64,000 nt of DNA, from NCBI GenBank assembly GCA_045837725.1, contig JBEWZL010000145.1:372001-436000 (forward strand), in the 5' to 3' direction. The notes beneath the pieces were generated by a model. It had not been told where the DNA came from. It did no database searches and worked only from the letters and a program-made list of their open reading frames with translations. Source of the stretch: Vermamoeba vermiformis (taxonomy: Eukaryota). The stretch's first letter is position 1; every line of letters begins with the position of its first letter. Position numbers and translations under genes: made by a program. Shown here in pieces: positions 7,657 through 60,464 of the stretch.

Positions 7657-9271
7657 ATGCCTTATTTAGTTTCAGATCAAGGCAAAGTCATTCGTTTGGA
7701 ATGCGACACATCGATGACACTCGGCAGATCTGCTGCTTTGGTATGTAAAATATTTAGAAAAAAACGAAACAATTTTTATAATAATATATTATATTAGTGC
7801 GTACCAAGTAGCACTTTGAAATAATATTATAGTGATAAATACTAAAGTTTCGATAATTTTAATTCGAAGAATTTTTCTAAGTAATTAATTCCATTTCGCT
7901 TCGTAGGGCGTCGATGATGTCAAATGCAGCAGAAATCAAGCTCAGCTAATTATTCAACCGAATGGGACTTGCCAACTCCTCTTTACCGGAAAAAATCCGA
8001 TGTCGCTGATGCAGCCGATCGGCAACCAAGTTCGCGTCACTTACCTAAAGAAAGGCTCCGTATACACACTAAATCACGGTGATAAGTTTTCTATGATCAG
8101 TGACCGCTTCTGGTTCACTTATAAGACCGAACTGGAAGAAAGCCCATCGCAAGACTCGATCGAGCCAACGCAGATCATCCGCAACGACTCTGGCTTAAAG
8201 AACAACACAAATAATAACAGCATAGCACCTGTTCAGAACAGCCACCCGAGTATTATTCCAGAAAAGGTCCAAGCCCAGCAACAAGTTCTTGATAAGACCA
8301 ATGTTGCCCCTGCAGTACCGTCATACAACAATAGAGTTAGCAGCCTCGAGTACGAACCAATTGAACTGAATGACGACGTCTTGATGAAAATCGACCAACA
8401 AGCTGACGACGCTCTCGTGCATAATAATAACAACGTTGCACATGACGTTCCTAGCGATAACTTTAACAACGAGAATGTAAACAATGAAGTCATCGACAGA
8501 CCAATTGAAGAGCAACAACGAAACACCTTGTGTACTGCTAGCGACTCTCTTATTCGCCCAGTCGATGAACATGGTAGCAATGTCCGTGGTGAGGATGATG
8601 TGCACTACCAAGACTTGGACGCGCTGAAGAAGAACGTGCACTTTGAAATTCAACCAATGGTCGAAGAGAACTATACAGACACTCACGAGCCACACAACAA
8701 TAACAATGCCAATGCCCATGCTCGCTCGCACCCAGTCAACAATCAAATGTTGATCACGTCCTTCATGAAGGAAAAGAAGAATAACGACTTTAAGGCACGT
8801 GTCTCACCGACCAAGAAAAAGACAGACAAGCGACCAGTGCCTGGCTCTATGGCTTCAATCATCGAGTCCTCGAAGAACGAGGCGATGGAACAAATTGACG
8901 AGTCTGAGAACAACGACTTTGAACAGAAGATCCGCGAACGAAAGAGAAAGCGTGAAGAAGAGCAACAGTCACCAAACAAGATCCAAAAGATCGACCCCGA
9001 AGTCATTCCTAACTGCCAACACGGTGTTCCAGCCTTTGTGCGCACCGTGCTCAAAGAAGGACCCACAAAAGGCAAGCAGTACTACGGATGTGGCTTGGGC
9101 AGCGAGAAGTGCAGTTTCTTCCAGTGGGTCGGAGCTCCTAACTGCGAGCACGAGTTGCCATGCACGCGACAAGTGGTCAAAAAAGAATGCAAGAATCAGG
9201 GTCGTAACTTCTGGTGCTGCAATCAGATCGACAAGTGCAAAACATTCCGCTGGATCAAGGACGGCGAGTGA
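7657..9271 (+). CDS. FHA-domain protein with PIP-box-like motif and two C-terminal GRF-type zinc fingers
   Basis: TLGRSAAL/GVDDVKCSRNQ...GKNP (FHA GR, SR and N motifs; intron 7741-7906). CQHG...GKQYYGC...CSFFQW and CEHE...NQGRNFWCC...CKTFRW match zf-GRF. Confidence 0.8.
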
Positions 9272-24921: not shown

Positions 24922-28221
<3,300 letters not shown>

Positions 28222-33828: not shown

Positions 33829-35942
<2,114 letters not shown>

Positions 35943-45286: not shown

Positions 45287-48200
45287 TTATTGTGGCACGC
45301 TCACTTTGCTTACGAGTTTCTTCTTTTTAACTGGTGTGGCGGTCGTGCTCGTGCTCTGATTCTTTTGTGCCACAGTGGCACTACTTTTGCCGCCAGTGAT
45401 CTTCGTACCATTAGCGAGCATGACAGCGGATTTAAATGCTTTCTTGACGATATTCAGAGGTCCTTGTGATGGTTCCACGGGTTTGGAATCACTTGCAATC
45501 TCGATAAGTTCGGTGTCACGTGATGCGGAGCTAGGTCTCTCCTCGTCATCAGTCTTCCTATCGTACTTGTCCTTGTCGTGATGTTTGTCTTTTTCTTTAT
45601 CTCTGTCTTTGTGCTTATCGTCCTTGTCTTTATCCTTGTCGTGCCTGTCTTTGTCTTTTTCTTTGTGCTTCTCTCTATCCTTGTCTCTGTGTCTGCTCTC
45701 GTGCTTGTCTTTGTCCTTGTATTTATCTTTGTCTTTGTCTCTGCGCTTGTCTTTGTCCTTACTACTGCGATGTTTGTCTTTGTGTTTCTCTTTCTCTTTA
45801 TCTCTGCGTCTATCCTTGTCCTTATCTTTGTCTTTTTCTTTATCTCTGTGCTTATCGTCCTTATCCTTCTCTTTGTCCTTGTCACTTGATCGGTCCTTCT
45901 CTCGTCGTTGATCCAACGCGTCCTTCAACACTTTGTGTCGTTTGTGTGCTCTATCTTCAGAAGGTGATCTCGACCGACTTCTTTTTCTGTTGCTGCGTAC
46001 CTCGTTCTGAGAAGGGACAGTCGTCTGGGCCTGTGATTGTGAGCTAGTATTGGCTTCTTGGACAGTGGCCGTAGCAGCAGGTGGAGGGCACGTAGGTGGC
46101 GGCGGAGTGACTTGCGGCTCTCGTGGAGGTTCAGGCTGTGCTGGCATTGACACGACTTCAGTCTTAATAGCCACTGACACGACTTCATTCTTTATAGCCA
46201 CTGGTGCGACTTCGGCCTTAATAGCCACTGGTGCGGCTTCTTTTTTAACCACAACAGGGGTCTGTACGGTCACTGGCCTCGGCTCTACTCGAGCAGTAGT
46301 ACTCGTCTCGGGTTCAGAAGGCTTTTGGTTTTGCTTCCGCTTGGTTCTATTGCGATAGAAGCTATCGTCGTCTTCTTTAGGTTCCTCGTCTAGTTCAGTC
46401 TTTGTGGCCATTATGGACGTTGGTGCTGAGGGCACTTGTTGTACGGCCACGACAACTTGCTGCACGACTTGTTGTTGCAACACTTGCACGGGCACTGCTT
46501 GTTGAACAGGCTGAAAGGGCGGTGGCAGCAGTGCTAGTGGGGGTTGCAATGGCAGGCCGTTCATGGCAGTTGGTACCCCGTATGGAGCCGTGTAACCGGG
46601 TCTATTGTCGTACGGTTGTCGGGGATGGTAATCAGCGTGTTGTGGCTCATACGCTCTGTTGTTGTATCCCCCGACTCCGTTGTAACGTTGGCGGTACCCT
46701 CGACGATTTGAAAAATAACTTGCTTCCCGTATTGTGTCGTCATATCGGCCACGGCGGTAACTAAAGTTGCCGTTGTGATGCTGTCTGTCACGAGGAGCTT
46801 GGTCTCTGAAGTGATTATAACCGTTGTGGGCAGGAGCTGTGGAACAATTAGAACGACGCTCGGAATAATTGTTGCGTTTAAACTGACTCTCATAATGGTC
46901 TTGGTTGTTATAGTCACTTCTGTCGTAAGAATAGTGGTCCTGGTCATTATTATATTGTGCATTGTTCACTTCTTGCGAGGCTGGACCATGGTCTGTCATC
47001 AATTCGTCGTCATTAAAGTCAATCTCATTGCATGCCATAGAACCTGTCAATGACACGTGTCAATCATAGCTGACTCGCATAATTACCTTGCAGTTGTATA
47101 CTCACCGTGCTGTTGATAGTCATCAAAGTTCAGCGCCAAGTTTGGTGCTAGCCTCTCGCTTATGAAGTTATCCTCGTTATTGCCAATTGCTGCAGTGACG
47201 TTCTCAGTTTTAGAGCTGAGTACCGCGGATGGCGCACTGTCAACAAGATTTTGAGACGTGTTTGTGGTACTGGCGACCGTCTCCTCTTTAGGCCTTATAA
47301 CTGATTGGTCAACGACTTTAGTGTCAGTGTTGGTCGTAGTAGCAGGTGCACCATCAAGGCTCGGAGCAGATGCAGCATTGTTGTTATCGTTGTTGACACT
47401 ACTGTCGCCAGCAGCTTGATCCGATAGCGGTGGCGCGGATTGACTTGCTGGCTCAACGACGGCAGTTTTCTTCTTGAAGCTCACCTTGTTCAACTTCTGC
47501 GCGTCAATGACATTGCTCTGAATGACGTTCTGACTGCTGTCATTGACAATCAACTTTGCCGCTGTTGTTGTCTTTTTCTCGTTGTTTGTGTTCGCTTGAC
47601 TCTGCTGCGCACGACTCGAGGTTATTTTGGCACTGAGAGCCGTTCGCTTTTCTTTTCCTTTGCGCCCTGCCAGAGTCCTTCGTTTCGGTGCAGCATCATT
47701 TGCAGGACTATTATCACCACCCTCGGCAGCTTTAGCCTCACCAGGTTGCTCCACGGAGGCAGGACCTTCGCTCTGTGGCGCTTGTTGCGTTATTTTAATC
47801 TTGCTCAAGATTTGAGCCTTGGCACTACTGACTGGTTCAGCATTAGATGACGGCTTCAGTTCTTTGATCTTCGTCTTGTTCGAGGGAGGCTTTTCGATTG
47901 CAGGTGCAACGAGGAACTTTGCTGCGGCCACCGGTGTCTTCTTCACTGCAGGAGTTAGCTGTTGTGGCTTTGTAGGAGTTTTAAGCGCAGTCGTCGAGTC
48001 AACGGAGGGCTTTGTTATTGCCGGTTGGGCAGGTGCTGGCTCTACGGGCTGTGGCTGTGGTTGTTTTTGAACAGGTGTAGGCTCGACAGGAGACGGCTGG
48101 TTCGGGCGCCGTTTAGCTCTTGCAGGCTTGGCGGGTAGCGTCGGCTTTGGAACTGGCTTTTGAGTCTCAGTATCGAGCAGCGGCTTGGGCAGGATTGGCG

Positions 48201-49831
48201 TTTTCTTCGCTGATGGAAAGGGTGGTTGTGGCTTTGAGGGTGGCTTTAAAGCTGACGTTGAATCAACAGCAATTTCTTTAGCTGATGTAGACTCCATGGA
48301 AGGCGTGGGATCTGTTGGCACTTCGTTGTTGATCGAGACATTGTTGACCGATAATGTTGGCGGGTCTGTCGCGCCTTCAATCGGCATTACTTTCTCCGCA
48401 TCGTCGTCCATGAAAGGAATATCTGTCAGCGTGAACTGTGGCGCGGGGCCATTCGCTTCACGTTTGTTTTTTCCATCGCTCACGCGGGGTTCGTCATTGA
48501 CCTTGCTCTGAATGTAATTGATATCCATGTCATCGATGAAATTGTGTTCAATGCAGGTGTCTTCTCCTACAACTACTTCGTCTTCAGACAAGCCCTCGTC
48601 GTGATCGTGATCTCCAGGCTTGTCGGCGAACTGATCCACTGGCAAGTGGACTTCCGTGGCCTTGATGATCTTCGTTGGAGTTGAAACGAAGCTGCGTCGA
48701 TCCATGTGACAGCCGTCATTTATAACTGTCACCGTGGATGCGGTCTCTTGTTCCTTCTGCTCTATTTCAGGGTCTTCATAAGTAAGTTCGATGAAATCAT
48801 CTGGCAATTCCTTCGGTGCCCTTCTCTTTCGCAAATTATACTTTGGTTCACTTGATTCCTCGACAACTTCATCCGCCAGATCGATCAAATGCGTTTCTTC
48901 GTCGTTCGTGTTGTTATTATTGTTGTTAGTGTGATGGTGCCGAGTGTACCTAGTTCGCACGGGCCCAATATCTTCTCTCACCTCAATAGACCGTGGCTTC
49001 CTTCGCTTGGTCTTGCGATGGGAAGTCTGAGTATTATTGCGATGGTGCCGTCGTTCTCTGTGACTGTGACGCGTCATTTCTGCGAGACTTTGTTCGAGCT
49101 GCTCGAGGTTATCTATCGGGGCTACATCCATTGCTGCTGAATAGACCTCGTCATCTATAATCCATTCGTCGAGCTCTTCCATCTCTATATCAAGTTGGAA
49201 TTGTTCGAACTCTGCAAAGCTAAGTAAAGACTAGAATTAATATGGAAAACAGATGCGATCCCGCGAGAAGAAATTTGCTTAGATATGCTTGGAATTTTAT
49301 TACAGTACTTACGTCATCTCGGGCGGCCTTTGTTTTTTATGAGCAATTCTTTTAGTTGTCGCTTGGACTTCTTTTGGATTTGAATCCTCGCCTTGAATCC
49401 GCACCTTCAAAATCAATTAAAACTCGTGCGTTTATTAAATAATATTATTTTACCATTTTTTTAAGCACAGTGAATTTAGTCTTGCATAAGGGGCATGAGT
49501 TTTCTTGCTAAATATGCAAAGAATTAATTATTCTGACAGACAAGTTCTCTTTGCAGAAAAAAAGCAAATCAATTATCGAACGTACTTTAGTATAAATTAA
49601 TTAAATATTGACGATCCGCTCGAAGAATTGAGTTTAGAATCGTTATTGAATTTTCTTTAGTCTACATTTTTTCTAAGGCCTATTAATTACCTCAGCCCAC
49701 GTTAATACGCAGTCAAAGCAAAATACGTGCTGACAAGAATTAATAATCGCTTTCTCGTAATATTTTTCGGTGCAGATGGGACACTCTTCGGCAAACTGTA
49801 AGATTTGCTTGCCATCCAAAGTGCCCTCCAT
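45287..49831 (-). CDS. N-terminal RING (C3HC4) protein with long disordered, RS-like and KD-rich regions
   Basis: CPICTE...SCQHVFCFDCVLTWAE / QENSCPLCK; two long exons; RSRSRSPS and (DK)n tracts. Confidence 0.85.
45560..45900 (-). repeat. Coding low-complexity repeat (Asp-Lys/His/Arg)
   Basis: GACAAA/GATAAG hexamer-like repeats encoding DKDKDKH. Confidence 0.8.
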
Positions 49832-50134: not shown

Positions 50135-53100
50135 ATGGATGTTAAAGGAGGTTTAATTGTAGAAAGTAAGTAGGAATCTTGGTTGAATAGACGAATTGAA
50201 TTTTTCGGATGAATAGTATTTTGGAATTACAATATTAATTATGACGCAGTATTGGAGGCAAAAGTACATCCAGGGAGTGGCAAAGACTCCACAGATCCTT
50301 TTTGTACTGTAACAGTTGGATCGAAAAAGAAGAAGACCAAAATAATTCGCAATACACTAAATCCAGTTTGGACCAAAGAACTCTTCGAATTGTATGTAAA
50401 TTCTAATTAATTTTAATATTTTTTGTTGTCATATGGCAATAGAAGCGTGATTCTAAAGTTTCGTTAACTTCTAACTTTTTGTTGTTTTTAAAGTGAGGTG
50501 GATTTGACTGATTTACCTGAATTTGTCGTGCATTTAGCTGATTGGAGCTTATTGGGCAGTCAAGAACTAGGTTATATTAAAATTAAGTCAGAATCAGCCA
50601 AAATAGAAGGACCAGCTATAGATTCGTGGATCTTGCTCGAAACAACAAAAGAAAAAGGAGGAAGGTCAGAATTAAGACTTAGATATAAAGTATCAAAGAC
50701 TCCGCCTCCTAAAAAGAAGAAGAGGTTTGGTTCAAAAAGTTCATCTCATCCTTCAACACCAGATTCGAAACGACCAGCCAAACCGGTCCCAAAGACGTTA
50801 TTTCAGTGCGTAGAAGCACGTGATATGGAAGGTAAGCAATTCTACAATTACTCAGTTTTTTATCAAAAGTCGGAGATAAAATTTTGTGTTCGATTTTCGT
50901 TTTGGATGTGTTTACCGATCGGCACCACCCGTTGACTTAAAAATAGAATCAAGCGATATTAATATTAAAATATACTAGGTTTTACCAACATCTTGACCCA
51001 CGTTACCGCAGACGAAATTAATCAAGCAGATCCTCGGCTCGGCAATACAGTATTGCATGAAGCGAGCTTAAATTGCAAAAATGAAGTTGTGGCTCGTATG
51101 GTGATCAAATTATTAGAGGTAATCAGATTAATCTTATCTTTACACGTTTATCCGCATTATCAACGTCATCGTAATTTCTAAATATGGAAAGTTAAATTTT
51201 AATGGCGAGCGTCCGAGATTTTGAGCGAGGCAAACCTAAAAATTAATGGCCCTATCATTTTGTATTGCGCAACGCGAATTGTGTTACACAATCCTTGCCG
51301 GACAAACCAAGTCCTATTATATACTTTGCATCATCTAGTTTATCCGCGAGGGTCGACGAATCCAGTTCTTTTGGATCATCTAGATCTGGCCCCTCTTCTG
51401 ACACAGTTTATTGACTTGATTTGTTACGCAGCACCCTGCCACCGACGCGACCATCGCGAACACAGACGGCAACACAGCTTTTCATTTCTTTTGTCGGCAT
51501 TGGTCCTCGCCCAACACCTTAGATCGATCCTTCGAGCTGTTCATGAAAAAAGGCGTCAACATCAACGCGGTCAATGCCAACGGCGAGACACCGCTGTTCA
51601 AGGCTATTGAAAACAAAGACACACGTGGCCTCCTACTGCAAGAACTGTTCAGTCGGGGAGCGGATCCGAACATCGCTAATAGCCGTGGCGACTATATCTT
51701 GCATTACGTGTCAAGATTGGCTGATAGGTAATTACTTAATTATAATTTATTGAGTTTACGAATTGCGGAAAAACTAATGGTTTGAATCTGATCAGAGAGG
51801 ATTTGGTCAACTTGATTTTGAAGGCCTCGCCGAAACTTGACAATAAGGGTGTCGAAGGCAAGACTCCGAAGGAGCTAGCAGCAATGTATAATAATCCTAA
51901 AACGCTGCAGAAGCTCCAAAAAGCGGAAGGTAAGTGTCGCATCTCGATCTGTCGTTGGTACAAATTATGTATTAACGAAAATTAATTTGATCCGTTATTC
52001 TATTGAAGTCATCAAGTACGAAAAGTTACGAATCTTTTCGTAATCTCGGACCAAAGATATTTATCTCAGATAAGAAAGAATTTCTTTCCATTTTTAGTTA
52101 ATCATCTACGGAAAATCTCATACCGCGCTTCCGATTAATTAAGCGATTACTTAATGACCTTTATTTTGCAGAGCTCTTCCAATGGCTCGAGAAGCACAAT
52201 CTCAGCGAGTACAAGCGCGCGTTCATCCAGCGCAACATTGAGCTGGCCGATCTGGTCAAGCTGCAAGAGTCCACGCTATTGGACAGCATGGAAATCACTA
52301 ACGACGCACGGCGGACAATTCTCGATGCCTGCCGTGACTTGGAGAAGACAATAGTGCGCAAAAAGACACGTAAGTTTCACCTCCTTGGTACACTTTAGAT
52401 CAGATCTTAGGAATTTCTCAATTCACTTTTCTTACCCTTATTATGGTCATATTATAACTAGTCGGTTCATGAATTTGTTTCTTTTGATTTTCAAGAGTTC
52501 CTAAGTGAAATTTATGTATCCCCATATGATGAACCCTATGTAACCCAATATCGTGCTCTTTTGCACTGAATTTACACAGGCTCTGCTCGCCCTCTTTCGC
52601 CACATAAAACAGTCGAACATTTGCGTGTTTCAAGTGATACTCCTCGTACAAGATCCGACAGCATCACGAGTGCCACGAGCTCGCAGTCCAATTCGAGCTC
52701 ATCGTCGCTGAAACTCCGAGAAGATTTCACGATTGGCGATCAAATCAACGTAGGCGAGATTGAGTACGTTGAAAAGCTCGGCATTGGAGCGTCAGGCGAA
52801 GTGTTCAAAGGCATCTACAAGGGCAAGTTTGTGGCGTGCAAGTTCCTCAAGGCCAAAGAGAAGGAGTTCGAAGAGTTCCAAAAAGAATACAAGATCATGT
52901 CTGCGATCCGCGATACTTGTGTCGTGCAGTTCTTGGGCGTAGCAATGGGCACGGATGACAAGCTGTGCATGGTCATGGAGTTCTGCGAGCGCGGCAGTCT
53001 GTTCAACGTGCTGAGGGTAAGCTTATCGGCATCATTGGCTTTGCAACAATTCGTGTTGTTCCGACACGTAATTTACACATAATTTTAGGACGACGCCAAC

Positions 53101-53754
53101 TTCAATTGCACGTGGGAACGAGTTTTTTCATTTGCTTTGCAAGCTGCTCGTGGTCTCGCAACATTGCACAACAACAAACCTCAGATCTTGCACCGAGATC
53201 TCAAGTCACTTAATTTGCTCGTTACACAGAACTGGCAGATTAAGCTAGCCGACTTTGGCTTATCTAGATTCGATACAGCTGAGAATTTGGATACCATGAA
53301 GCAGATGCGAGGTACGTGATCCCCCTACAAAAATTTACAATTTTCCAAATTTAGAAAATAACGGAACAACTTTGTAGGCACATTGGCGTATTGCTGCCCA
53401 GAGGTCTACTACGGCATTAAATACACGAACAAGTCTGACATCTACTCGTTGGGCATCATCTTGTGGGAGATGGCCAATCGGTGTCTCAAGAACAAATATG
53501 AGCAGCCGTACTCGGAGTACAGGCACTTGACTTTCGACTTCCAGATCATTATTAAAGCCGCCAAAGAAGATTTGAGACCGACAATGCCGCCAGACTGCCC
53601 TCCGGAGTTTTTGAAAATTATTCTTGCCTGCATCCACAAGGACGCTGCCGCAAGACCCGAAGTCAACGAAGTGATCCAAATGCTCACTGAATGCCAAGAA
53701 ATATTCCGCGCTAACCAAGAGGCGTGGGAGAATCTTCGGGCGAAGCGAGCCTAA
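50135..53754 (+). CDS. C2, ankyrin and SAM domain TKL-group protein kinase
   Basis: LIVEILEAK...TDPFC...TLNPVW (C2); GNTVLH and GETPLF (ankyrin); ELFQWLEKHNLSEYKRAF (SAM); GIGASG, HRDLKSLN, DFG and GTLAYCCPE. Confidence 0.92.
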
Positions 53755-54280
53755 GCTAAGTCAATTTTTGGATTGGCTGGCGAAAGATCCGGATCTGGAG
53801 CTCTTCGTCGTTTTCATCTTCGAGACCAATATTTTGATCTTAACGGAGGTACTGCGAGTTAGTATTAATTCACTGCTCATGGACCGACGTTACGGAATTG
53901 GGCTCGAAGATTTTTGAATTTTTGTTGGCTTGGCGAGGCTAAGTTTTTGTTTGATTTTTGTGCTATAGTATCTCAATATGACCACCTTGTATATTAATAC
54001 CCCATTGTACTACCGCTAGGTAAAATAAAGGACTTTGGACCTTCAGATCTGCTCTCCCCCCGTCGCAAGCAAGGAAGAATTATTTTCTCTAATTAGTGCG
54101 AGTACTAAGAAATAGGTTTGTGATTTTGTGCGATAGTAGTAATAATTAAGAGCTTAGCTATTCGTAGAAATTCACGCGTAAAAGTACAAGAACAAAATAT
54201 TTAGCTGCTGGTAGCATTTTGATTAATATTAATATCCGTAACCACACGTATAAAAAGAGCATAAGTGGTTAGTACCAGTA

Positions 54281-56967
54281 ATGGAAGGCCAGACAACGGC
54301 AGATTTTGATCTTCGAAGTGGATCGACAGAGATTCAGCTCCCAGTAAGTTCCGTAATCTTTTTAAATATGATTTTATTAAATTAATATCGTATAGATAAA
54401 GGAAGAAACGGTCAAGAAGGCAGAGGTCTCTCAAGGTAACAGATTCGGCCAACATTTAAAATTGTAAATTTGATACGCAGTTTGCAAGCTATAAATTAGT
54501 AATCCTACAACATAATTAGGCGAGAATAAAGAAGAGAAATCTTTGGTATCCCAAAGCGCGGGTGATAAAATCAAAGAAAAAAATGACACGGCAAACGTCA
54601 AAAAGAAAAAGAATGCGCCAAAGAAGAAGAAAAAGCTCGAAGGACTGCCCAAATTAGTCGATGCGAATGAAGCAGACGGACCGCGAGCATCTGAATGCAC
54701 GTTGATTTTGACCGAAGGCGATTCTGCCATGGCCCTTGCAGTTTCTGGCTTGTCCGTTATGGACCAGCGAGATCTGTACGGCGTTTATCCATTAAGGCAC
54801 GTTATCTGACATACATAATACAAATTTGCGAAATATATATGGTTATTAACAATGTCTTTAGGGGTAAGCCGTTGAATGTTCGGGATGCGGCAATAGCAAT
54901 GGTGCAAAAGAACGAGGAGCTAATGGCTATCGTGAAGATTATGGGCTTGAAGTTCGGCACGGTCTATGAAGACGTCAGCAGTCTTAGATACGGCCATCTA
55001 ATGATCATGGCCGACCAAGACTACGACGGATCTCATATCAAAGGCCTCATAATCAACTTCATTCACTTCTTCTGGCCCTCATTGCTCAAAATTCCCGGAT
55101 TTTTACTGGAATTTATCACGCCGATCGTGCGCGCTAAAAAAGACAAAGAAGTGATCTCGTTCTACAGCACGAATGAGTACAATGCTTGGAAAGAGAAGAA
55201 TGACACGACAGGCTGGACATTCAAGTATTACAAAGGCCTTGGCACCTCGTCAGCGGTAGAAGCAAAGCAGTACTTCTCCGCACTCGACAAGCACCGAAAA
55301 GAATTCGTTTATGAAGGGGCTGCCGACGACTATGCAATCGACTTGGCGTTCTCAAAAAACAAAGCCGATGAACGTAGGCGATGGCTGTCAGAGTACCAGC
55401 AAGGCACTGGTCTGGACGAATCACTCGCGAAGATTCCTTTCTCGGAATTTATCAACAAAGAACTGATCCAATTCTCACTTGCTGACTGCAAACGATGCAT
55501 TCCGAGCATTATGGATGGACTGAAACCTGGTCAACGAAAAGTCTTGTACGCGTGTTTCAAGCGCCGTTTGACCAACAGCATACGAGTGGCTCAGTTCAGT
55601 GGCTATGTCTCAGAAACAGCGTTGTATCACCACGGTGAATGCAGCCTGCAAGCAACAATCGTAGGAATGGCGCAGAACTACGTGGGCTCTAACAACATCA
55701 ATTTGCTTGAGCCTGAAGGACAGTTCGGCACGCGATTGCACGGCGGCAGTGACGCAGCTAGCCCGCGCTACATTTACACCAAGTTGTCGCCGTTGACACG
55801 TGCGTTGTTTCACCCTGCTGATGACACTTTGGTCAAGCACATCAATGAAGAAGGCCTCAGTATTGAGCCAGAATGGTACATCCCGATCATTCCGATGTCT
55901 CTGGTCAACGGCACTGAGGGCATTGGTACTGGCTGGTGCACGAGCATTCCGAGCTTCAATCCACGTGACATTGTCGAGAACATTCGCCGCATGATGAAGA
56001 AAGAGCCGTTACAGCAAATGACACCGTGGTATCGTGGCTTCAAAGGCACCATTCGATGGAGTCCTGCAAAAAATTCGTTTGTTTCACAAGCTGTTTGGCG
56101 TCGTGTTGACGATGAGACACTGCACATCAGCGAGTTAGTTGTGCGTTATTGGACTAGTTCGTTCAGAGAACACTTGGGCAAAGTCATTCCAAACTCTGTT
56201 GTTAAAGTCACGGTACGTAGCTGCAATGAATTAATATTGACAGTTAATTAACAACGTCATCAGAGCTTCGAAGACAACAGCACCGACACGGCAGTTAATT
56301 TCACAGTCAAAATTCCTGGTTTGAAAGACATTCCCGACGAACAAATCGTCAAAGATCTACGACTCGAAGCCAAGATTAGCACCTCAAATATGCATTTGTA
56401 CGACCCTGAAGGCAAAATCAAGAAGTACAATACGCCTGAGAGTATTATTGAAGAGTTTTATCCCGTTCGATTGAAGTTCTACGAGAAACGTAAAGACTCG
56501 ATCGTTGTAGATCAAACGCTCAAATTGAAACGACTGGAGAATAAGCTCAGATTCATTGAGCTAGTGGGCGATGGCAAGTTAAGAGTATTTAGAAGAAATA
56601 GAGCAGATGTTATCAGCGACATGGCTCAACTCGGACTGGATGCGATGACCGAGGAAAATGGATCCGACAGGCCAACTCCTTCCTACGACTACTTGCTTTC
56701 AATGCATATCAATAGCTTGACTATAGAAGATATTGAAGTATTGCAAGCCGAGTTTACAGAACGAAAAGCAGCACTCGAGAATGTTCGTCAAAGGACGCCG
56801 GAGCAGTTTTGGGAGGAAGATCTGAATTCATTCCTCGAAGCTTTGGAGGTAAGCGTGATAGCTACAGTAATGTTATTAAATCAAATGGCTTACCAATGGA
56901 TTAGGAATACGAGCGAGATCTCGATAAGCCCAAAACCAAGAAGAAAAAGGAAATTCTGGTTTTCTAA
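54281..56967 (+). CDS. Type IIA topoisomerase cleavage core (TOPRIM-WHD-tower-C gate) lacking the ATPase domain
   Basis: LILTEGDSA, PLRGK, MADQDYDGSHIKGL, YYKGLGTS, DGLKPGQRK, YHHGE and AASPRY. Six exons. Only about 70 low-complexity residues precede LPKLVDAN. Confidence 0.9.
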
Positions 56968-57107
56968 GCTGTGGTGGAGGTAGAGGATGCCATAACTCGA
57001 ATAAATTCCCGTAATTTATAACAAATCATTGCGCTATTTTTGGATCGGCTGTTTTTTTTTGATTGTTCGTGCAGTCTATTAATACTTCAAAATTTGATCG
57101 ATTAACT

Positions 57108-59140
57108 ATGGAAGATAATATTTCAGTTGGCACGACTCCCTTACCATTGCAAATCAAGGACACTTTAAGCGTTATCTTTGGTCAGATGCCGTTAAAGACC
57201 ATCGGTCTATGCGCACGCGTATCAAAGCGATGGAAAGAGGTCGTAAGTAATTAATATCATTGGCATTTGATTATTACTAGTCATGAGCACAGTATTTTAG
57301 AGTTTTTTTGGATCGTGAATTTTATTAACGACAAAACCTCATTTACTTACCAAGCATCATTTTAATTAGACGGATAATTTTCTATTGCTCGAAGAACTCA
57401 ATTTAGAGCCAAAGAACTGGATGCCTGCCTATGAATATGCCTCGATGGCGATTAAAAAATTCCAGCACGCCAATAAAATCAAATTACCGAAGCGCTGCGA
57501 TTTAACTCCCGAGGAGCGAAATTTCTTTCAAGAACATTATCCGAAGGGAGTTAAAAATATTACTGCCCTTTCCTTCCCACCTACAATGTATTACGCGGCC
57601 AGAGACGAAAAGCGACGAGGTAATCGAGATATAGATTATATTTATAGCGTATTAATACAAATAATTGGGTTTTTATAGAGGAACTTGCGAGTTTAATTTT
57701 GGATCCGTTGCCAAAAAGTTGCGACCATTTTGATTTCGTCAGTTTTTGGCCTGAAATATTCAACCATATGAACAAAAATCATTCTGAGAAATTAAAGGTA
57801 ATCAAAATAAGCTAGCATTATATCCTAATGAAATTTTAATTTTGGATCCGCAGAGTTTGCATATTTTGCTGAATACGCCAGGCCATATATCAGGATCATG
57901 GGACTCATTTATAAACTTAATTAAGAACAGTACTCGATTGGAATCATTAGGATTGCATTACTACGAATCAACAACATTTTACCACGGCACGCCAAATTTC
58001 AACGTGATGACCGATAATTTGGTTCAAGTCCTGAACTCCGCACCGCAATTACAGCACTTAAATATACCATTTAACTTCAACGTTGACACCGTCGTACAAC
58101 AGATGGGATCGATGCCTCATTTGACGTATTTGTATGTTCAAGAACGAATGACGAACTCGCGTCCCAACACGCTTTTGGAAAAATGCAAAAAATTACGTCT
58201 GTTACATTTGCAACTGAATAATTCCAACGAGCAATACGCAATTTCATCGACGAGCTTGCAGACGTTATTAATTGATGCTACGGCAAATCTGAAAAGCATC
58301 ACCATCGAATGTCCAAATTTGGAAGTGTTGAAATTTACCGGCGGAGTAAATCGAAGTATTAACGAAGTGTTTTTGGCCGGCGCACATAAATTAGAAGAAT
58401 TCACGAGCAAAGTGCCAATCACCGTTGGTCTTTATGGAAATTTCGAATCGGTGAAAGTGGCCAATCAAAACACTTTAATGCCAGCCAACCACGCGCAGCT
58501 CGGATTCATGTCAAATTTGCAACAATTAACGCTTGAATGTGAGGCACCAAAGACTCAAATGATTTATGACTCCATGGAGACATTAACGCAATTAACCAAT
58601 TTAAGAAATTTGGAACTGGTCAAGGTCAAAAGATTTGCAATGTTTAGCGCAATCTCGCAACTTACCAAATTAGTACTACGAGAGTGCGAGACTCACAGCA
58701 AAGAAATTCAATTCATGAATTTGCCAAACTTGCGAGATCTGCAGATGAGACACAGCGCCGAGATTAGTACTGTCAAAATAAGCGGATGCCAGCAACTTAC
58801 CAACTTAGTATTGTTTGATAACGCTCATCTCCGTACTTTGGAGATTAAGGACTCGCCTAATATAGAGGATATTGATATTAGAAATTGCTCGTTGAATTTA
58901 TCGTCGTGGAGACAGATCGAAAAATTGACGAAAGTGAAGGAAATATTGGCGCTAGTTATTCCGATGAGTTCTTACCTTAAAATCACCGGTCAGTGGCCTA
59001 CCATTACCATTTTAGGCAAAAAGATGATGGATCGAGTCTATACAGGCGGAATTAATATGCTTGGGACTCCAGTCGATTGGATCACTAAAGAAGAATACGA
59101 CGAGTGTGGACCTGGTGTGAGAACGAGGAAAGTATATTAG
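57108..59140 (+). CDS. F-box/leucine-rich repeat protein
   Basis: KDTLSVIFGQMPLKTIGLCARVSKRWKE (F-box) followed by LRRs. Confidence 0.85.
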
Positions 59141-59269: not shown

Positions 59270-60350
59270 GAACCAGTTTTGGAACCTAATTGCCAAAGTT
59301 TCCGGTCCACGGTTGCCAAAAAATCCGGTTCTGGGAGGTTTCCTTCCAGCAATTTACCTTCCAGCAGTTTTCCTTCCAGCAGTTTTCCTCGGAGCTGTAA
59401 CCTTCTTGCCGAAATTTCTTGTCGTTGCCAAAAAATCCGGTTTGGAAGCAAGCTGCCACGAGGTTTGGAAGCAAGCTGCCGCGGTGCCAAAAAATCCGGT
59501 TCTGGTAGCTAGCTGCAAAAAAGTCGGTTCTGGAAGCTAACTGCCACGACGCCAAAAAATCCGGTTCCAGCACTTGGAACTTCTAGCAGTTTTTCTTCCA
59601 GCAATTTACCTTCCAGCAGTTTTTCTTCCGACAGTTTTCTTCGGAGCTGCAACTTTCTTGCCGAAATTTCTTGTTCGTTGCCAAAAAAGTCGGTTCTGGA
59701 AGCAAGCTGCCACGGTGCCAAAAAATCCGGTTTGGAAGCAAGCTGCCACGTGCCAAAAAAGTCGGTTCCAACGCTTGGAACTTCCAGCAGTTTTTCTTCT
59801 AGCATTTTTTCTTCCAGCAGTTTTTCTTCCGACAGTTTTCTTCAGAGCTGCAACTTTCTTGCCGAAATTTCTCTTTCGTTGCCAAAAAATCCGGTTTGGA
59901 AGCAAGCTGCCACGATGCCAAAAAAATCCGGTTCTGGAAGCTAGCTGCCACGGTGCCAAAAAAACCGGTTTGGAAGCAAGCTGCCACGACGCCAAAAAAT
60001 CCGGTTCCAGCACTTGGAACTTCCAGCAGTTTTCCTTCCAGCAATTTGACTTCCAGCAGTTTTTCTTCCGACAGTTTTCTTCGGAGCTGCAACCTTCTTG
60101 CCGAAATTTCTCGTTCGTTACCAAAAAAACTGGTTTGGAAGCAAGCTGCCGCGGTGCCAAAAAATCCGGTTTGGAAGCTCCGCCACGGTTGCCAAAAAAT
60201 CCGGTTCCAGCACTTGGAACTTCCAGCAGTTTTTCTTCTAGCATTTTTTCTTCCAGCAGTTTTCCTCGGAGCTGCAACCTTCTTGCCGAAATTTCTTGTC
60301 GTTGCCAAAAAACTCGGTTCTGGGGTTTCTTCCAGCAGTTACTTCTAGCA
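59270..60350. repeat. Hierarchical (higher-order) tandem repeat array
   Basis: 15-nt subunits (CTTCCAGCAGTTTTY) and about 35-nt subunits (GCCAAAAAATCCGGTTTGGAAGCAAGCTGCCACG). Marker CTTGCCGAAATTTCT occurs at 59405, 59657, 59858, 60097 and 60282. Confidence 0.95.
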
Positions 60351-60464
60351 ATATTTTTCTAACCTAATGAGACAGTGATAATGGCTTGAGACGATGTCGA
60401 GAGGCGAGATTTTCATCTGCAATCGTTTATGTTTTTCAGTAGTACCACCAATTATTATTTATCG

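What the first reader, a model, noticed from the sequence alone, without database searches (positions are those of the whole stretch)
54281..56967. Type IIA topoisomerase with an intact cleavage core but no ATPase domain
Seen: the spliced model (about 790 aa) starts with a short charged leader and Lys-rich NLS and enters directly at LPKLVDAN, the start of the TOPRIM region. The upstream kinase stops at 53754, leaving about 530 bp, too little for the roughly 400-residue GHKL and transducer domains. EGDSA, PLRGK, DQDYD, KGLG, YHHG and the catalytic RY are all present. The frame is intact, the gene has its own TATA-like box (about 54249) and 5' exons, and the long C-terminal tail is also missing. 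Known: eukaryotic Top2 needs ATPase-gate closure for strand passage, but the isolated core can cleave and religate DNA. Inference: this is either a dedicated break-forming enzyme or half of a split topoisomerase whose ATPase subunit is encoded elsewhere.
Basis: partly seen in the sequence, partly recalled or inferred. Interest (0 to 1): 0.82.

Follow-up and report, generated by a model that had tools for sequence, protein, structure and literature searches.

The report
Natural topoisomerase II without its ATPase
An unnamed microbial eukaryote carries a conserved, intact copy of the DNA-untangling enzyme topoisomerase II that has lost its ATP-burning motor, a form that a 2023 paper in the field said had not yet been noted in any genome.

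Summary
Window 54281-56967 (+) is a six-exon gene for a 792-aa type IIA topoisomerase core: TOPRIM, winged helix with the catalytic Arg-Tyr, tower and C-gate. It starts at the TOPRIM domain behind a 76-residue disordered, Lys-rich leader.

No GHKL or transducer sequence occurs anywhere in the 64 kb, by tblastn or by profile. The nearest upstream gene is a SAM-kinase ending 526 bp before the ATG.

A relative (75% identical core) has an intron-free 806-aa ORF on transcript-sized contigs. It shares the first 19 residues (17 identical) and the same C-terminal end, so the short form is old, spliced and expressed.

The clade sits inside cellular full-length TOP2 sequences (UFBoot 98-100) on a long stem. 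It keeps all six catalytic residues and changes seven times less at invariant than at variable sites.

Best reading: a lineage-specific TOP2 paralogue working as an ATP-independent two-gate enzyme, like the engineered human TOP2B core. No natural example was in print as of that 2023 paper or in my four searches.

Still open: no whole genome or RNA reads were available. A separate ATPase subunit, pairing with canonical TOP2, and the organism's identity are untested.

The parts
52102..53754 (+). Upstream neighbour: SAM-domain plus TKL-type protein kinase gene. Its stop at 53752-53754 bounds the space available for any TOP2 5' exons.
   Evidence: Pfam SAM_1, Pkinase and PK_Tyr_Ser-Thr on ORFs at 52102-52398, 52570-53040 and 53362-53754.
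54249..54257 (+). TATA-like word TATAAAAAG, 24 nt upstream of the ATG. Its promoter role is inferred only.
   Evidence: Read directly from the sequence. An in-frame TAA at 54251 lies within it.
54281..54343 (+). Exon 1: 21 codons, MEGQTTADFDLRSGSTEIQLP. This is a conserved N-terminal peptide and possibly a relic of the transducer QTK-loop region.
   Evidence: 17 of the first 19 residues are identical to the start of P0385/P0393. The best ungapped offset on 24 canonical Top2 sequences is the QTK loop.
54396..54435 (+). Exon 2: 40 nt, part of the charged leader. It is inferred from GT-AG sites and frame only.
   Evidence: There is no support from relatives because the leader is not conserved here.
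54520..54796 (+). Exon 3: Lys-rich, NLS-like leader followed by the start of TOPRIM (LPKLVDAN, EGDSA with Glu100 at 54714-54716, PLR).
   Evidence: tblastn homology to 7 Top2 queries starts at 54636-54645.
54797..54861 (+). Intron 3: 65 nt, with a GC-AG boundary (AAG|GCACGT ... TTTAG|G), phase 2, inside the Arg codon of PLRGK.
   Evidence: Only this junction gives PLRGKPLNV as in P0385.
54862..56212 (+). Exon 4: rest of TOPRIM (DQDYD; Asp178/180/182 at 55013-55027), TOPRIM_C, winged-helix domain with Arg429-Tyr430 (55766-55771), and tower.
   Evidence: Pfam TOPRIM_C 2.8e-47 and DNA_topoisoIV 8.8e-79.
56264..56848 (+). Exon 5: rest of the tower, coiled-coil arms and C-gate.
   Evidence: Pfam DNA_topoisoIV positions 253-431, 4.5e-20. 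The relative's genomic pieces show the same intron positions.
56905..56967 (+). Exon 6: a 20-residue tail with a Lys-rich patch (KPKTKKKK), then TAA. It stands where canonical Top2 has a long C-terminal domain.
   Evidence: The tail aligns with the end of P0385.

Best explanation
This is a lineage-specific paralogue of the nuclear TOP2 gene.

Origin (inferred from the data):
- It arose by a DNA-level partial duplication and lost about 370 N-terminal codons: the GHKL ATPase and most of the transducer. It also lost the long C-terminal domain.
- What remains of the transducer's last 70-odd residues has decayed into a disordered, Lys/Glu-rich leader, headed by a conserved 19-residue peptide.
- The rest is a complete DNA-binding and cleavage core with every catalytic residue.

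Mechanism (inferred, not shown):
- The protein enters the nucleus through its Lys-rich patches and dimerises through the DNA-gate and C-gate.
- It cuts and reseals a DNA duplex with Tyr430 and the Mg-binding Glu100 and Asp178/180/182.
- Without ATP it lets a second duplex pass now and then, a 'two-gate' mechanism. It would thus be a weak ATP-independent relaxing and decatenating enzyme, or a controlled maker of double-strand breaks.

My odds: about 0.85 that it is a genuine, conserved, expressed ATPase-less Top2 gene, and about 0.4-0.5 that it acts on its own in this ATP-independent way.
For: Architecture:
- Pfam finds TOPRIM_C and DNA_topoisoIV only. P0385 shows no HATPase_c or DNA_gyraseB even at E <= 10.
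- No ATPase remnant is found in the 64 kb. The same profile hits 29 of 34 metagenome Top2 loci at E <= 1e-3, which serves as a positive control.

Age and expression:
- P0385 and P0393 (806 aa) lie on contigs of 2545-4540 nt. They lack the intron read-through seen in the genomic pieces of the same cluster (P0386, P0383, P0384).
- They start MEAQTTADFDLRSGSVEIQ and end with the same Lys-rich tail as the window's model.

Descent (18 of the 43 rows in the trimmed alignment):
- The ATPase-less clade has UFBoot 100.
- It is sister to P0004 (98), next to P0400, which is full-length with GHKL.
- The stem branch is 0.42 substitutions per site.
- P0004's ORF ends at the position of the window's intron 5.

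Constraint:
- The window's protein keeps 174 of 192 columns that are >= 95% conserved in canonical Top2, and P0385 keeps 175 of 192.
- The window's protein and P0385 differ at 12 of 186 invariant columns, against 66 of 140 of the most variable columns.
- 26 substitutions at well-conserved columns are shared across the clade.

Catalysis: P0385 E112, D189, D191, D193, R440 and Y441 align with yeast E449, D526, D528, D530, R781 and Y782. The window's equivalents are present.

Fold: AlphaFold2 gives pLDDT 86.8 with residues 1-79 disordered. Foldseek TM-scores to Top2 cleavage cores reach 0.92-0.94.

Precedent: the hTOP2B core (449-1206) relaxes and decatenates DNA without ATP (PMC10853770).
Against: - No whole genome was available. 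Neither a canonical TOP2 nor a stand-alone ATPase gene in this organism could be looked for.
- There is no DNA of relatives, so no codon-level dN/dS.
- The clade evolves about three times faster than its sister.
- It keeps fewer invariant residues (about 91%) than 40 canonical sequences (92-100%).
- The Toprim Pfam score of P0385 (19.6 bits) is below the cut-off of 23.1, against 30-35 bits in canonical Top2.
- The window's copy alone has changes at three >= 95%-conserved TOPRIM columns (G87D, K105M, G116D) and a one-residue insertion.
- In the human model the core without a CTD is only weakly active. The headless enzyme is toxic, raises recombination, and does not replace Top2 in yeast.
Confidence: 0.5

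Rival explanations
1. Modulator of canonical Top2. The ATPase-less protein pairs through the conserved DNA-gate and C-gate interfaces with a full-length Top2 subunit. The resulting heterodimer has a single ATPase head, so its N-gate cannot close, which tunes or blocks the canonical enzyme.
For: - The dimer-forming parts are complete and fold like known cores.
- The gene's closest relatives are canonical Top2 of the same clade, so interfaces may still match.
- A dosage-sensitive regulator would explain tolerance of an otherwise damage-prone core.
Against: - A pure inhibitor would not need all six catalytic residues, which are kept in every member that covers them.
- 26 clade-specific substitutions and a long stem may equally mean that the interfaces have diverged.
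- No partner from the same organism was available to test.
Confidence: 0.2
2. Split enzyme. A separately encoded GHKL-transducer subunit docks on this core, perhaps through the conserved N-terminal peptide, and restores ATP-dependent strand passage, as in GyrB/GyrA-type two-subunit enzymes.
For: - The first 19 residues are far better conserved than the rest of the leader: 17 of 19 identical, against roughly one in five for the rest of the leader by my reading of the printed alignment. That fits a docking motif.
- The genome could not be searched.
Against: - No ATPase piece is found within 54 kb upstream or 7 kb downstream.
- If exon 1 is the relic of the QTK loop, its ATP-contacting lysine is replaced (QTT). 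The helices that should transmit ATPase movements are then a disordered low-complexity stretch.
- Known natural splits leave TOPRIM with the ATPase subunit (recalled, not tested here).
Confidence: 0.12
3. A decaying duplicate (pseudogene), or an artefact of assembly or gene modelling.
For: - Evolution is faster and some invariant residues are lost.
- One intron needs a GC donor.
- Exon 2 is unsupported by relatives.
Against: - The frame is open across six exons.
- The same architecture is seen as a spliced ORF in a relative with a 75% identical core.
- Fragments from at least two further lineages (P0003, P0005) fall in the clade by identity, P0003 also in the trees.
- Substitutions are seven times rarer at invariant sites than at variable sites.
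- The window holds no N.
Confidence: 0.05

Closest known systems
Canonical eukaryotic DNA topoisomerase II (yeast Top2, PDB 4GFH; human TOP2A/TOP2B)
   Same: - TOPRIM, winged helix, tower, coiled coil and C-gate are all present.
- The catalytic Glu, the DxDxD aspartates and Arg-Tyr are conserved.
- Core identity is 43-58%.
- It descends from this family.
- Foldseek TM-score reaches up to 0.94.
   Different: - It has no GHKL ATPase, no functional transducer and no long C-terminal domain.
- A novel disordered leader carries a conserved 19-residue peptide.
- 26 clade-specific substitutions are found.
- Its evolutionary rate is about threefold faster.
Engineered Top2 cores: the yeast 92-kDa fragment (PDB 1BGW, residues 410-1202) and the human TOP2B core (449-1206) and 'headless' enzyme (449-1626) of Bandak et al., NAR 2023 (PMC10853770)
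   Same: - The boundaries are almost the same: P0385 residue 72 aligns with the first residue of 1BGW.
- The engineered human core shows ATP-independent relaxation and decatenation by a two-gate route. That is the mechanism proposed here.
   Different: - Those are laboratory truncations. This one is a natural gene kept by selection.
- Like the 'core', it lacks the CTD that boosts the headless enzyme.
- Its activity is untested.
Two-subunit type IIA enzymes (bacterial gyrase and topo IV; phage T4 gp39/gp52/gp60). The subunit make-up is recalled, not tested here.
   Same: The cleavage part is encoded apart from an ATPase part, which is the model behind the split-enzyme rival.
   Different: - In those enzymes TOPRIM stays with the ATPase subunit. 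Here TOPRIM is on the cleavage protein.
- No partner gene is known here.
Spo11, the ATPase-free descendant of the topo VI A subunit that makes meiotic breaks (PMC12203943, search listing only; the rest is recalled)
   Same: A type II topoisomerase cleavage module has been separated from its ATPase and could serve as a break-former.
   Different: - Spo11 is type IIB with a different fold and a different origin.
- Spo11 no longer reseals DNA.
- Here the whole type IIA core, including the C-gate, is kept.
Giant-virus topoisomerase II (IMG/VR contigs; ASFV P1192R structures)
   Same: It has the same fold (TM-score about 0.8).
   Different: - The 80 best viral loci are only 43-48% identical.
- 11 of the 12 placed in the tree form a separate clade, and the viral ORFs taken there are 1072-1205 aa long.
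- There is no sign of a viral origin.

Membership tests
Eukaryotic type IIA DNA topoisomerase (Top2) | N-terminal GHKL ATPase domain (Pfam HATPase_c) | tested here: not met
   - It is absent from the model and from P0385 even at E <= 10.
- No hit is found in the 64 kb by tblastn or by profile (best E 2.2).
Eukaryotic type IIA DNA topoisomerase (Top2) | Transducer domain with QTK loop (Pfam DNA_gyraseB) | tested here: not met
   - No Pfam or profile match is found.
- There is only a weak relic resemblance: the N-terminal peptide aligns best at the QTK offset, with median rank 1-2 of about 430 offsets, and the Lys is replaced by Thr.
Eukaryotic type IIA DNA topoisomerase (Top2) | TOPRIM fold with the catalytic Glu and the DxDxD metal-binding triad | tested here: met
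   - Glu100 and Asp178/180/182 are present and align with yeast E449, D526, D528 and D530 via P0385.
- TOPRIM_C scores 2.8e-47.
- Caveat: Pfam Toprim scores 19.6 bits in P0385, below the 23.1 cut-off.
Eukaryotic type IIA DNA topoisomerase (Top2) | Winged-helix domain with the catalytic Arg-Tyr, plus tower, coiled coil and C-gate (Pfam DNA_topoisoIV) | tested here: met
   - The two exons together cover DNA_topoisoIV positions 1-431 of 432.
- R429 and Y430 correspond to yeast R781 and Y782.
- The model matches solved cores with TM-scores of 0.92-0.94.
Eukaryotic type IIA DNA topoisomerase (Top2) | Descent from the eukaryotic TOP2 gene | tested here: met
   - It is nested among cellular Top2 sequences, sister to P0004 (UFBoot 98) and next to full-length P0400.
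- It is separate from giant-virus Top2.
Eukaryotic type IIA DNA topoisomerase (Top2) | ATP-dependent strand passage as a homodimer | not testable with these tools
   This needs purified protein. The domain loss makes ATP dependence implausible unless a partner exists.
Split (two-subunit) type IIA topoisomerase | A separately encoded ATPase subunit in the same genome | not testable with these tools
   No genome is held for this window. None is found within the 64 kb.

The most novel reading that the evidence does not exclude
This is the first natural, selectively maintained ATP-independent type IIA topoisomerase. It would be a secondarily derived living counterpart of the hypothetical ATPase-less 'two-gate' ancestor, working on its own in the nucleus beside a canonical Top2. 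The cell may use it for a task where uncoupled cleavage or strand passage is wanted.
Probability: 0.4. Interest if true: 0.88.

Novelty: new variant of a known kind. Interest (0 to 1): 0.76.

Why it matters
Why type II topoisomerases that only relax or decatenate DNA burn ATP at all is a long-standing question.

- Bandak et al. (PMC10853770, passages read) showed with engineered human enzymes that the ATPase is dispensable for strand passage but protects against DNA damage.
- They wrote that, to their knowledge, no ATPase-less type IIA topoisomerase had been noted in genomic data.
- My four literature searches found no later report.

A natural gene of this architecture, kept across several lineages, turns the question into an experiment. 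One can ask what this protein does in its cell, how the cell tolerates it, and which of its 26 clade-specific substitutions tame or boost uncoupled cleavage. It also gives a ready-made minimal Top2 for biochemistry.

Tried and rejected
- **Whole-genome search.** The search for a canonical TOP2 and a stand-alone GHKL gene could not be done.
- **Metagenome scan with P0385.** It returned 34 loci at 36-61% identity, with no close relative of the ATPase-less clade. Of the 5 loci with no hit to the ATPase profile, I opened two (L020, L022) and read only L020's translation. It is merely a 5'-open contig that still carries transducer sequence.
- **Genome-contig scan.** It found no relative.
- **Viral origin.** Rejected.
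- **Other ATPase-less forms among what I fetched.**
  - 62 of 477 proteins have EGDSA within the first 140 residues and are at least 600 aa long.
  - By my reading of their N-termini, the other 60 start inside TOPRIM or carry recognisable canonical linker or transducer sequence. They look like gene-call fragments.
  - Only P0385 and P0393 have the new leader.
- **Leader as a transducer relic.**
  - The profile search of the two leaders was not significant, at -0.5 and -2.4 bits.
  - Only the ungapped offset test was suggestive. The offset for the shuffle test was chosen after I had seen the resemblance, so 6 and 9 of 2000 are not clean probabilities.
- **Taxon.** It could not be settled.
  - The two Atlas look-ups gave no usable taxa, and Rfam found nothing in the window.
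  - The clade includes a protein labelled as a locust gene (P0137), but that protein's 12 closest rows in the trimmed alignment do not include human Top2. It is probably not an animal gene.
- **Full 43-taxon IQ-TREE run.** I replaced it with an 18-taxon subset and FastTree trees.
- **Mapping the hTOP2B R757W and K600T hyper-cleavage sites.** I could not map R757 reliably by numbering, so I make no claim.
Full report
**1. What is in the sequence**

The window is eukaryotic nuclear DNA: about 41% G+C, short introns, no N. On the + strand, 54281-56967 holds a six-exon gene.

- The exons are 54281-54343, 54396-54435, 54520-54796, 54862-56212, 56264-56848 and 56905-56967.
- Joined inside a script, they give a 2379-nt open frame of 792 codons plus TAA.
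- The introns are 52, 84, 65, 51 and 56 nt. Four have GT-AG ends.
- Intron 3 (54797-54861) must use a GC donor (AAG|GCACGT) to restore the universal PLRGK motif.
- Pfam finds TOPRIM_C (2.8e-47) and DNA_topoisoIV positions 1-248 (8.8e-79) in exon 4. It finds DNA_topoisoIV positions 253-431 (4.5e-20) in exon 5.
- Twenty residues with a Lys-rich patch follow the last exon junction. Canonical enzymes have a tail of several hundred residues there.

**2. The ATPase really is missing here**

- The gene upstream on the same strand is a SAM-domain plus TKL-type kinase that stops at 53754. That leaves 526 bp.
- An in-frame TAA lies 30 nt before the ATG.
- Seven full-length Top2 proteins searched by tblastn against the whole window align only from 54636-54645 onward. 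This corresponds to about their residue 330-520, the start of TOPRIM. Every other HSP has E >= 1.8.
- I built a 428-position profile from the GHKL+transducer parts of 26 canonical sequences. It scores no better than E = 2.2 (4.2 bits) on 3138 six-frame pieces of the window.
- As a positive control, the same profile hits 29 of 34 metagenome Top2 loci at E <= 1e-3. I opened two of the five misses (L020, L022). L020, the only one whose translation I read, is simply cut at its 5' end and still reads into transducer sequence.

**3. The short form is old, spliced and expressed in a relative**

The protein searches found a small set of close relatives, none of them named.

| Protein | Identity to exon 4 | Note |
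|---|---|---|
| P0001 | 96% | |
| P0002 cluster | 80% | 16 members |
| P0005 | 77% | |
| P0003 | 76% | |
| P0004 | 67% | |
| any protein of 789-2250 aa (mostly full-length Top2) | at most 62% | |

- The P0002 cluster holds genomic gene-call pieces that run into introns at the positions of the window's introns 4 and 5 (P0386, P0383, P0384).
- It also holds two 806-aa proteins, P0385 and P0393, on contigs of 2545 to 4540 nt. These read straight across those junctions.
- A gene caller that cannot splice can only give such an ORF on cDNA-derived contigs. That last step is my inference.
- P0385 starts MEAQTTADFDLRSGSVEIQ, and the window's exon 1 starts MEGQTTADFDLRSGSTEIQ. That is 17 of 19 identical residues, with conservation beginning exactly at the Met.
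- A poorly conserved Lys/Glu-rich stretch follows, then LPKL-DAN and the core, and the same Lys-rich end.
- P0385 has no HATPase_c or DNA_gyraseB match even at E <= 10, while P0400, P0398 and P0197 do.
- Of the 477 proteins fetched by then, 62 have EGDSA within the first 140 residues and are at least 600 aa long. By my reading, the other 60 begin inside TOPRIM or with recognisable canonical linker or transducer sequence, so they are fragments of ordinary genes. Only P0385 and P0393 carry the new leader.

**4. Where it comes from**

- In a maximum-likelihood tree of the core, the window's protein, P0385 and P0003 form a clade with UFBoot 100 on a stem of 0.42 substitutions per site. The tree used 18 of the 43 rows of the trimmed alignment, LG+G4.
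- The clade's sister is P0004 (98), followed by P0400 (77). P0400 is a 1567-aa enzyme with GHKL, transducer and a long tail.
- The whole group is set apart from the fungi, green plants, the oomycete, Physarum and Bigelowiella in that subset (96).
- FastTree on 43 rows gives the same picture. Two short rows, P0005 and P0001, were dropped from the trimmed alignment.
- P0004's ORF breaks off at the position of the window's intron 5, with a read-through that starts Val-Ser as a GTAAGT donor would give (my reading). This fits a DNA-level duplication rather than a retrocopy.
- A viral source is unlikely. The best 80 giant-virus loci are 43-48% identical to P0385. Of the 12 added to the tree, 11 form a separate clade and one groups with the long Albugo branch.
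P0137, labelled as a locust gene, sits in the wider group, but its 12 closest rows in the trimmed alignment do not include human Top2.

**5. Is it still an enzyme?**

Mapping P0385 on yeast Top2 (PDB 4GFH) gives these equivalences:

| P0385 | Yeast Top2 |
|---|---|
| E112 | E449 |
| D189 / D191 / D193 | D526 / D528 / D530 |
| R440 / Y441 | R781 / Y782 |

- The window's equivalents are Glu100, Asp178/180/182, Arg429 and Tyr430.
- P0385 residue 72 aligns with the first residue of the classic yeast 410-1202 fragment (1BGW).
- AlphaFold2 on a 66-sequence alignment gives mean pLDDT 86.8 and pTM 0.83. Residues 1-79 are below 50 and the rest is confidently folded.
- Foldseek puts Top2 DNA-binding and cleavage cores first, with TM-scores to the target of 0.92-0.94 and rmsd of 2.1-2.8 Å for the best.

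Constraint can only be judged at the protein level.

- Of 192 columns that are >= 95% conserved in 40 canonical sequences, the window's protein keeps 174 and P0385 keeps 175. Five of these columns are misaligned leader columns.
- Canonical sequences keep 92-100% by the same leave-one-out measure.
- The window's protein and P0385 differ at 12 of 186 invariant columns (6.5%) but at 66 of 140 of the most variable columns (47%). That is a sevenfold gradient, and neutral decay would not give it.
- The gradient is flatter in the middle classes than in canonical pairs.
- 26 well-conserved columns carry substitutions shared by the whole clade, several of them non-conservative.
- I read this as continued purifying selection under altered constraints.

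Against it:
- The Toprim score of P0385 is below Pfam's cut-off.
- The window's copy alone changes three near-invariant TOPRIM columns and has a one-residue insertion.

**6. The leader**

- MAFFT put the window's first six residues on the canonical F-D-S-Q-T-K.
- I slid the N-terminal peptide without gaps along 24 canonical N-terminal regions. The offset that puts its Gln on the Gln of the QTK loop ranks first (window) or second (P0385) in the median sequence, out of about 430 offsets.
- Shuffled peptides reach that score in 6 and 9 of 2000 trials. That offset was picked after I had seen the resemblance.
- A profile search of the two leaders is not significant.
- The distance from this Gln to LPKL is 73 residues in the window. 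By my count of the printed sequences it is about 65-70 in canonical enzymes.
- My inference is that the gene was cut just before the QTK loop. The ATP-contacting Lys was then lost (QTT), and the connecting helices decayed into a disordered, basic linker. This is suggestive, not shown.

**7. How it most likely works**

- I read passages of Bandak et al. (NAR 2023, PMC10853770; find mode only, no supplements).
- They report that the hTOP2B core (449-1206) relaxes and decatenates DNA without ATP at high enzyme:DNA ratios.
- The CTD or the R757W and K600T mutations raise this activity and also the cleavage.
- The headless enzyme does not replace yeast Top2, and no colonies are obtained in rad52- cells.
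- The natural protein here has the boundaries of that 'core'.
- I therefore propose a nuclear homodimer that cleaves and reseals DNA through Tyr430 and the TOPRIM metal site. It would allow occasional ATP-independent passage through the DNA-gate and C-gate.
- Its Lys-rich ends would serve for nuclear import and perhaps for holding DNA.
- None of this is shown. The rivals are pairing with canonical Top2, a separately encoded ATPase, and decay or artefact. They are listed with their odds.

**8. Novelty**

- My four full-text searches returned no natural example. I saw only listings and abstracts for the other papers.
- The scan's own notes hold nothing similar.
- By descent this is a Top2. By architecture it fails two defining features of the family. 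I file it as a new variant of a known kind.

**9. What remains open**

No genome, no reads and no relatives' DNA were available. Four things are untested:
- the presence of a canonical TOP2 or of a separate ATPase in this organism;
- transcription of this very locus, and exon 2 in particular;
- codon-level selection;
- the identity of the organism.

Noticed in passing
window 34479-35942 (+): A 487-aa uninterrupted ORF encodes a GH13 alpha-glucosidase/alpha-amylase (Pfam Alpha-amylase 8.3e-87). Its nearest Atlas clusters are mostly bacterial: the first is 92% Bacteria and the second is 54% Eukaryota. It may be a gene of bacterial origin in this eukaryote. This is a lead only.
   Followed up: partly
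window 59339-60206: A tandem-repeat array with nested periods of 15, 30, 36, 65, 201 and 239 nt (TRF scores up to 851). It overlaps long ORFs on both strands (59541-60362) that have no Pfam match.
   Followed up: no
window 45287-49230 (-): Two long ORFs (590 and 715 aa) have no Pfam family. The one I translated is a Pro/Thr/Ser/Gln/Lys-rich low-complexity protein. The region has G+C of 0.40-0.50 and a strong AT skew (-0.19 to -0.31).
   Followed up: partly
window 54797-54861: Intron 3 of the Top2 gene needs a GC-AG boundary. I could not check whether the relatives share it, because no DNA of theirs was available.
   Followed up: partly
window 57063-59140 (+): The downstream neighbour is an LRR protein (Pfam LRR_14 and LRR_R13L1-DRL21, both below cut-off). 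By eye it has an F-box-like start.
   Followed up: no
window 7907-9271 (+) and 25329-27400 (+): A protein with two GRF zinc fingers (8.6e-20), and a USP7-like ubiquitin protease in several exons (Ubiquitin_3 and UCH; USP7_C2 at 26.6 bits, below its 29.4 cut-off).
   Followed up: no
P0137 (protein found): A Top2 labelled as an uncharacterised locust (Schistocerca gregaria) gene on an 82.7-kb contig groups with unnamed protist-like Top2 sequences and not with human Top2. It may come from a non-animal organism in that assembly.
   Followed up: partly
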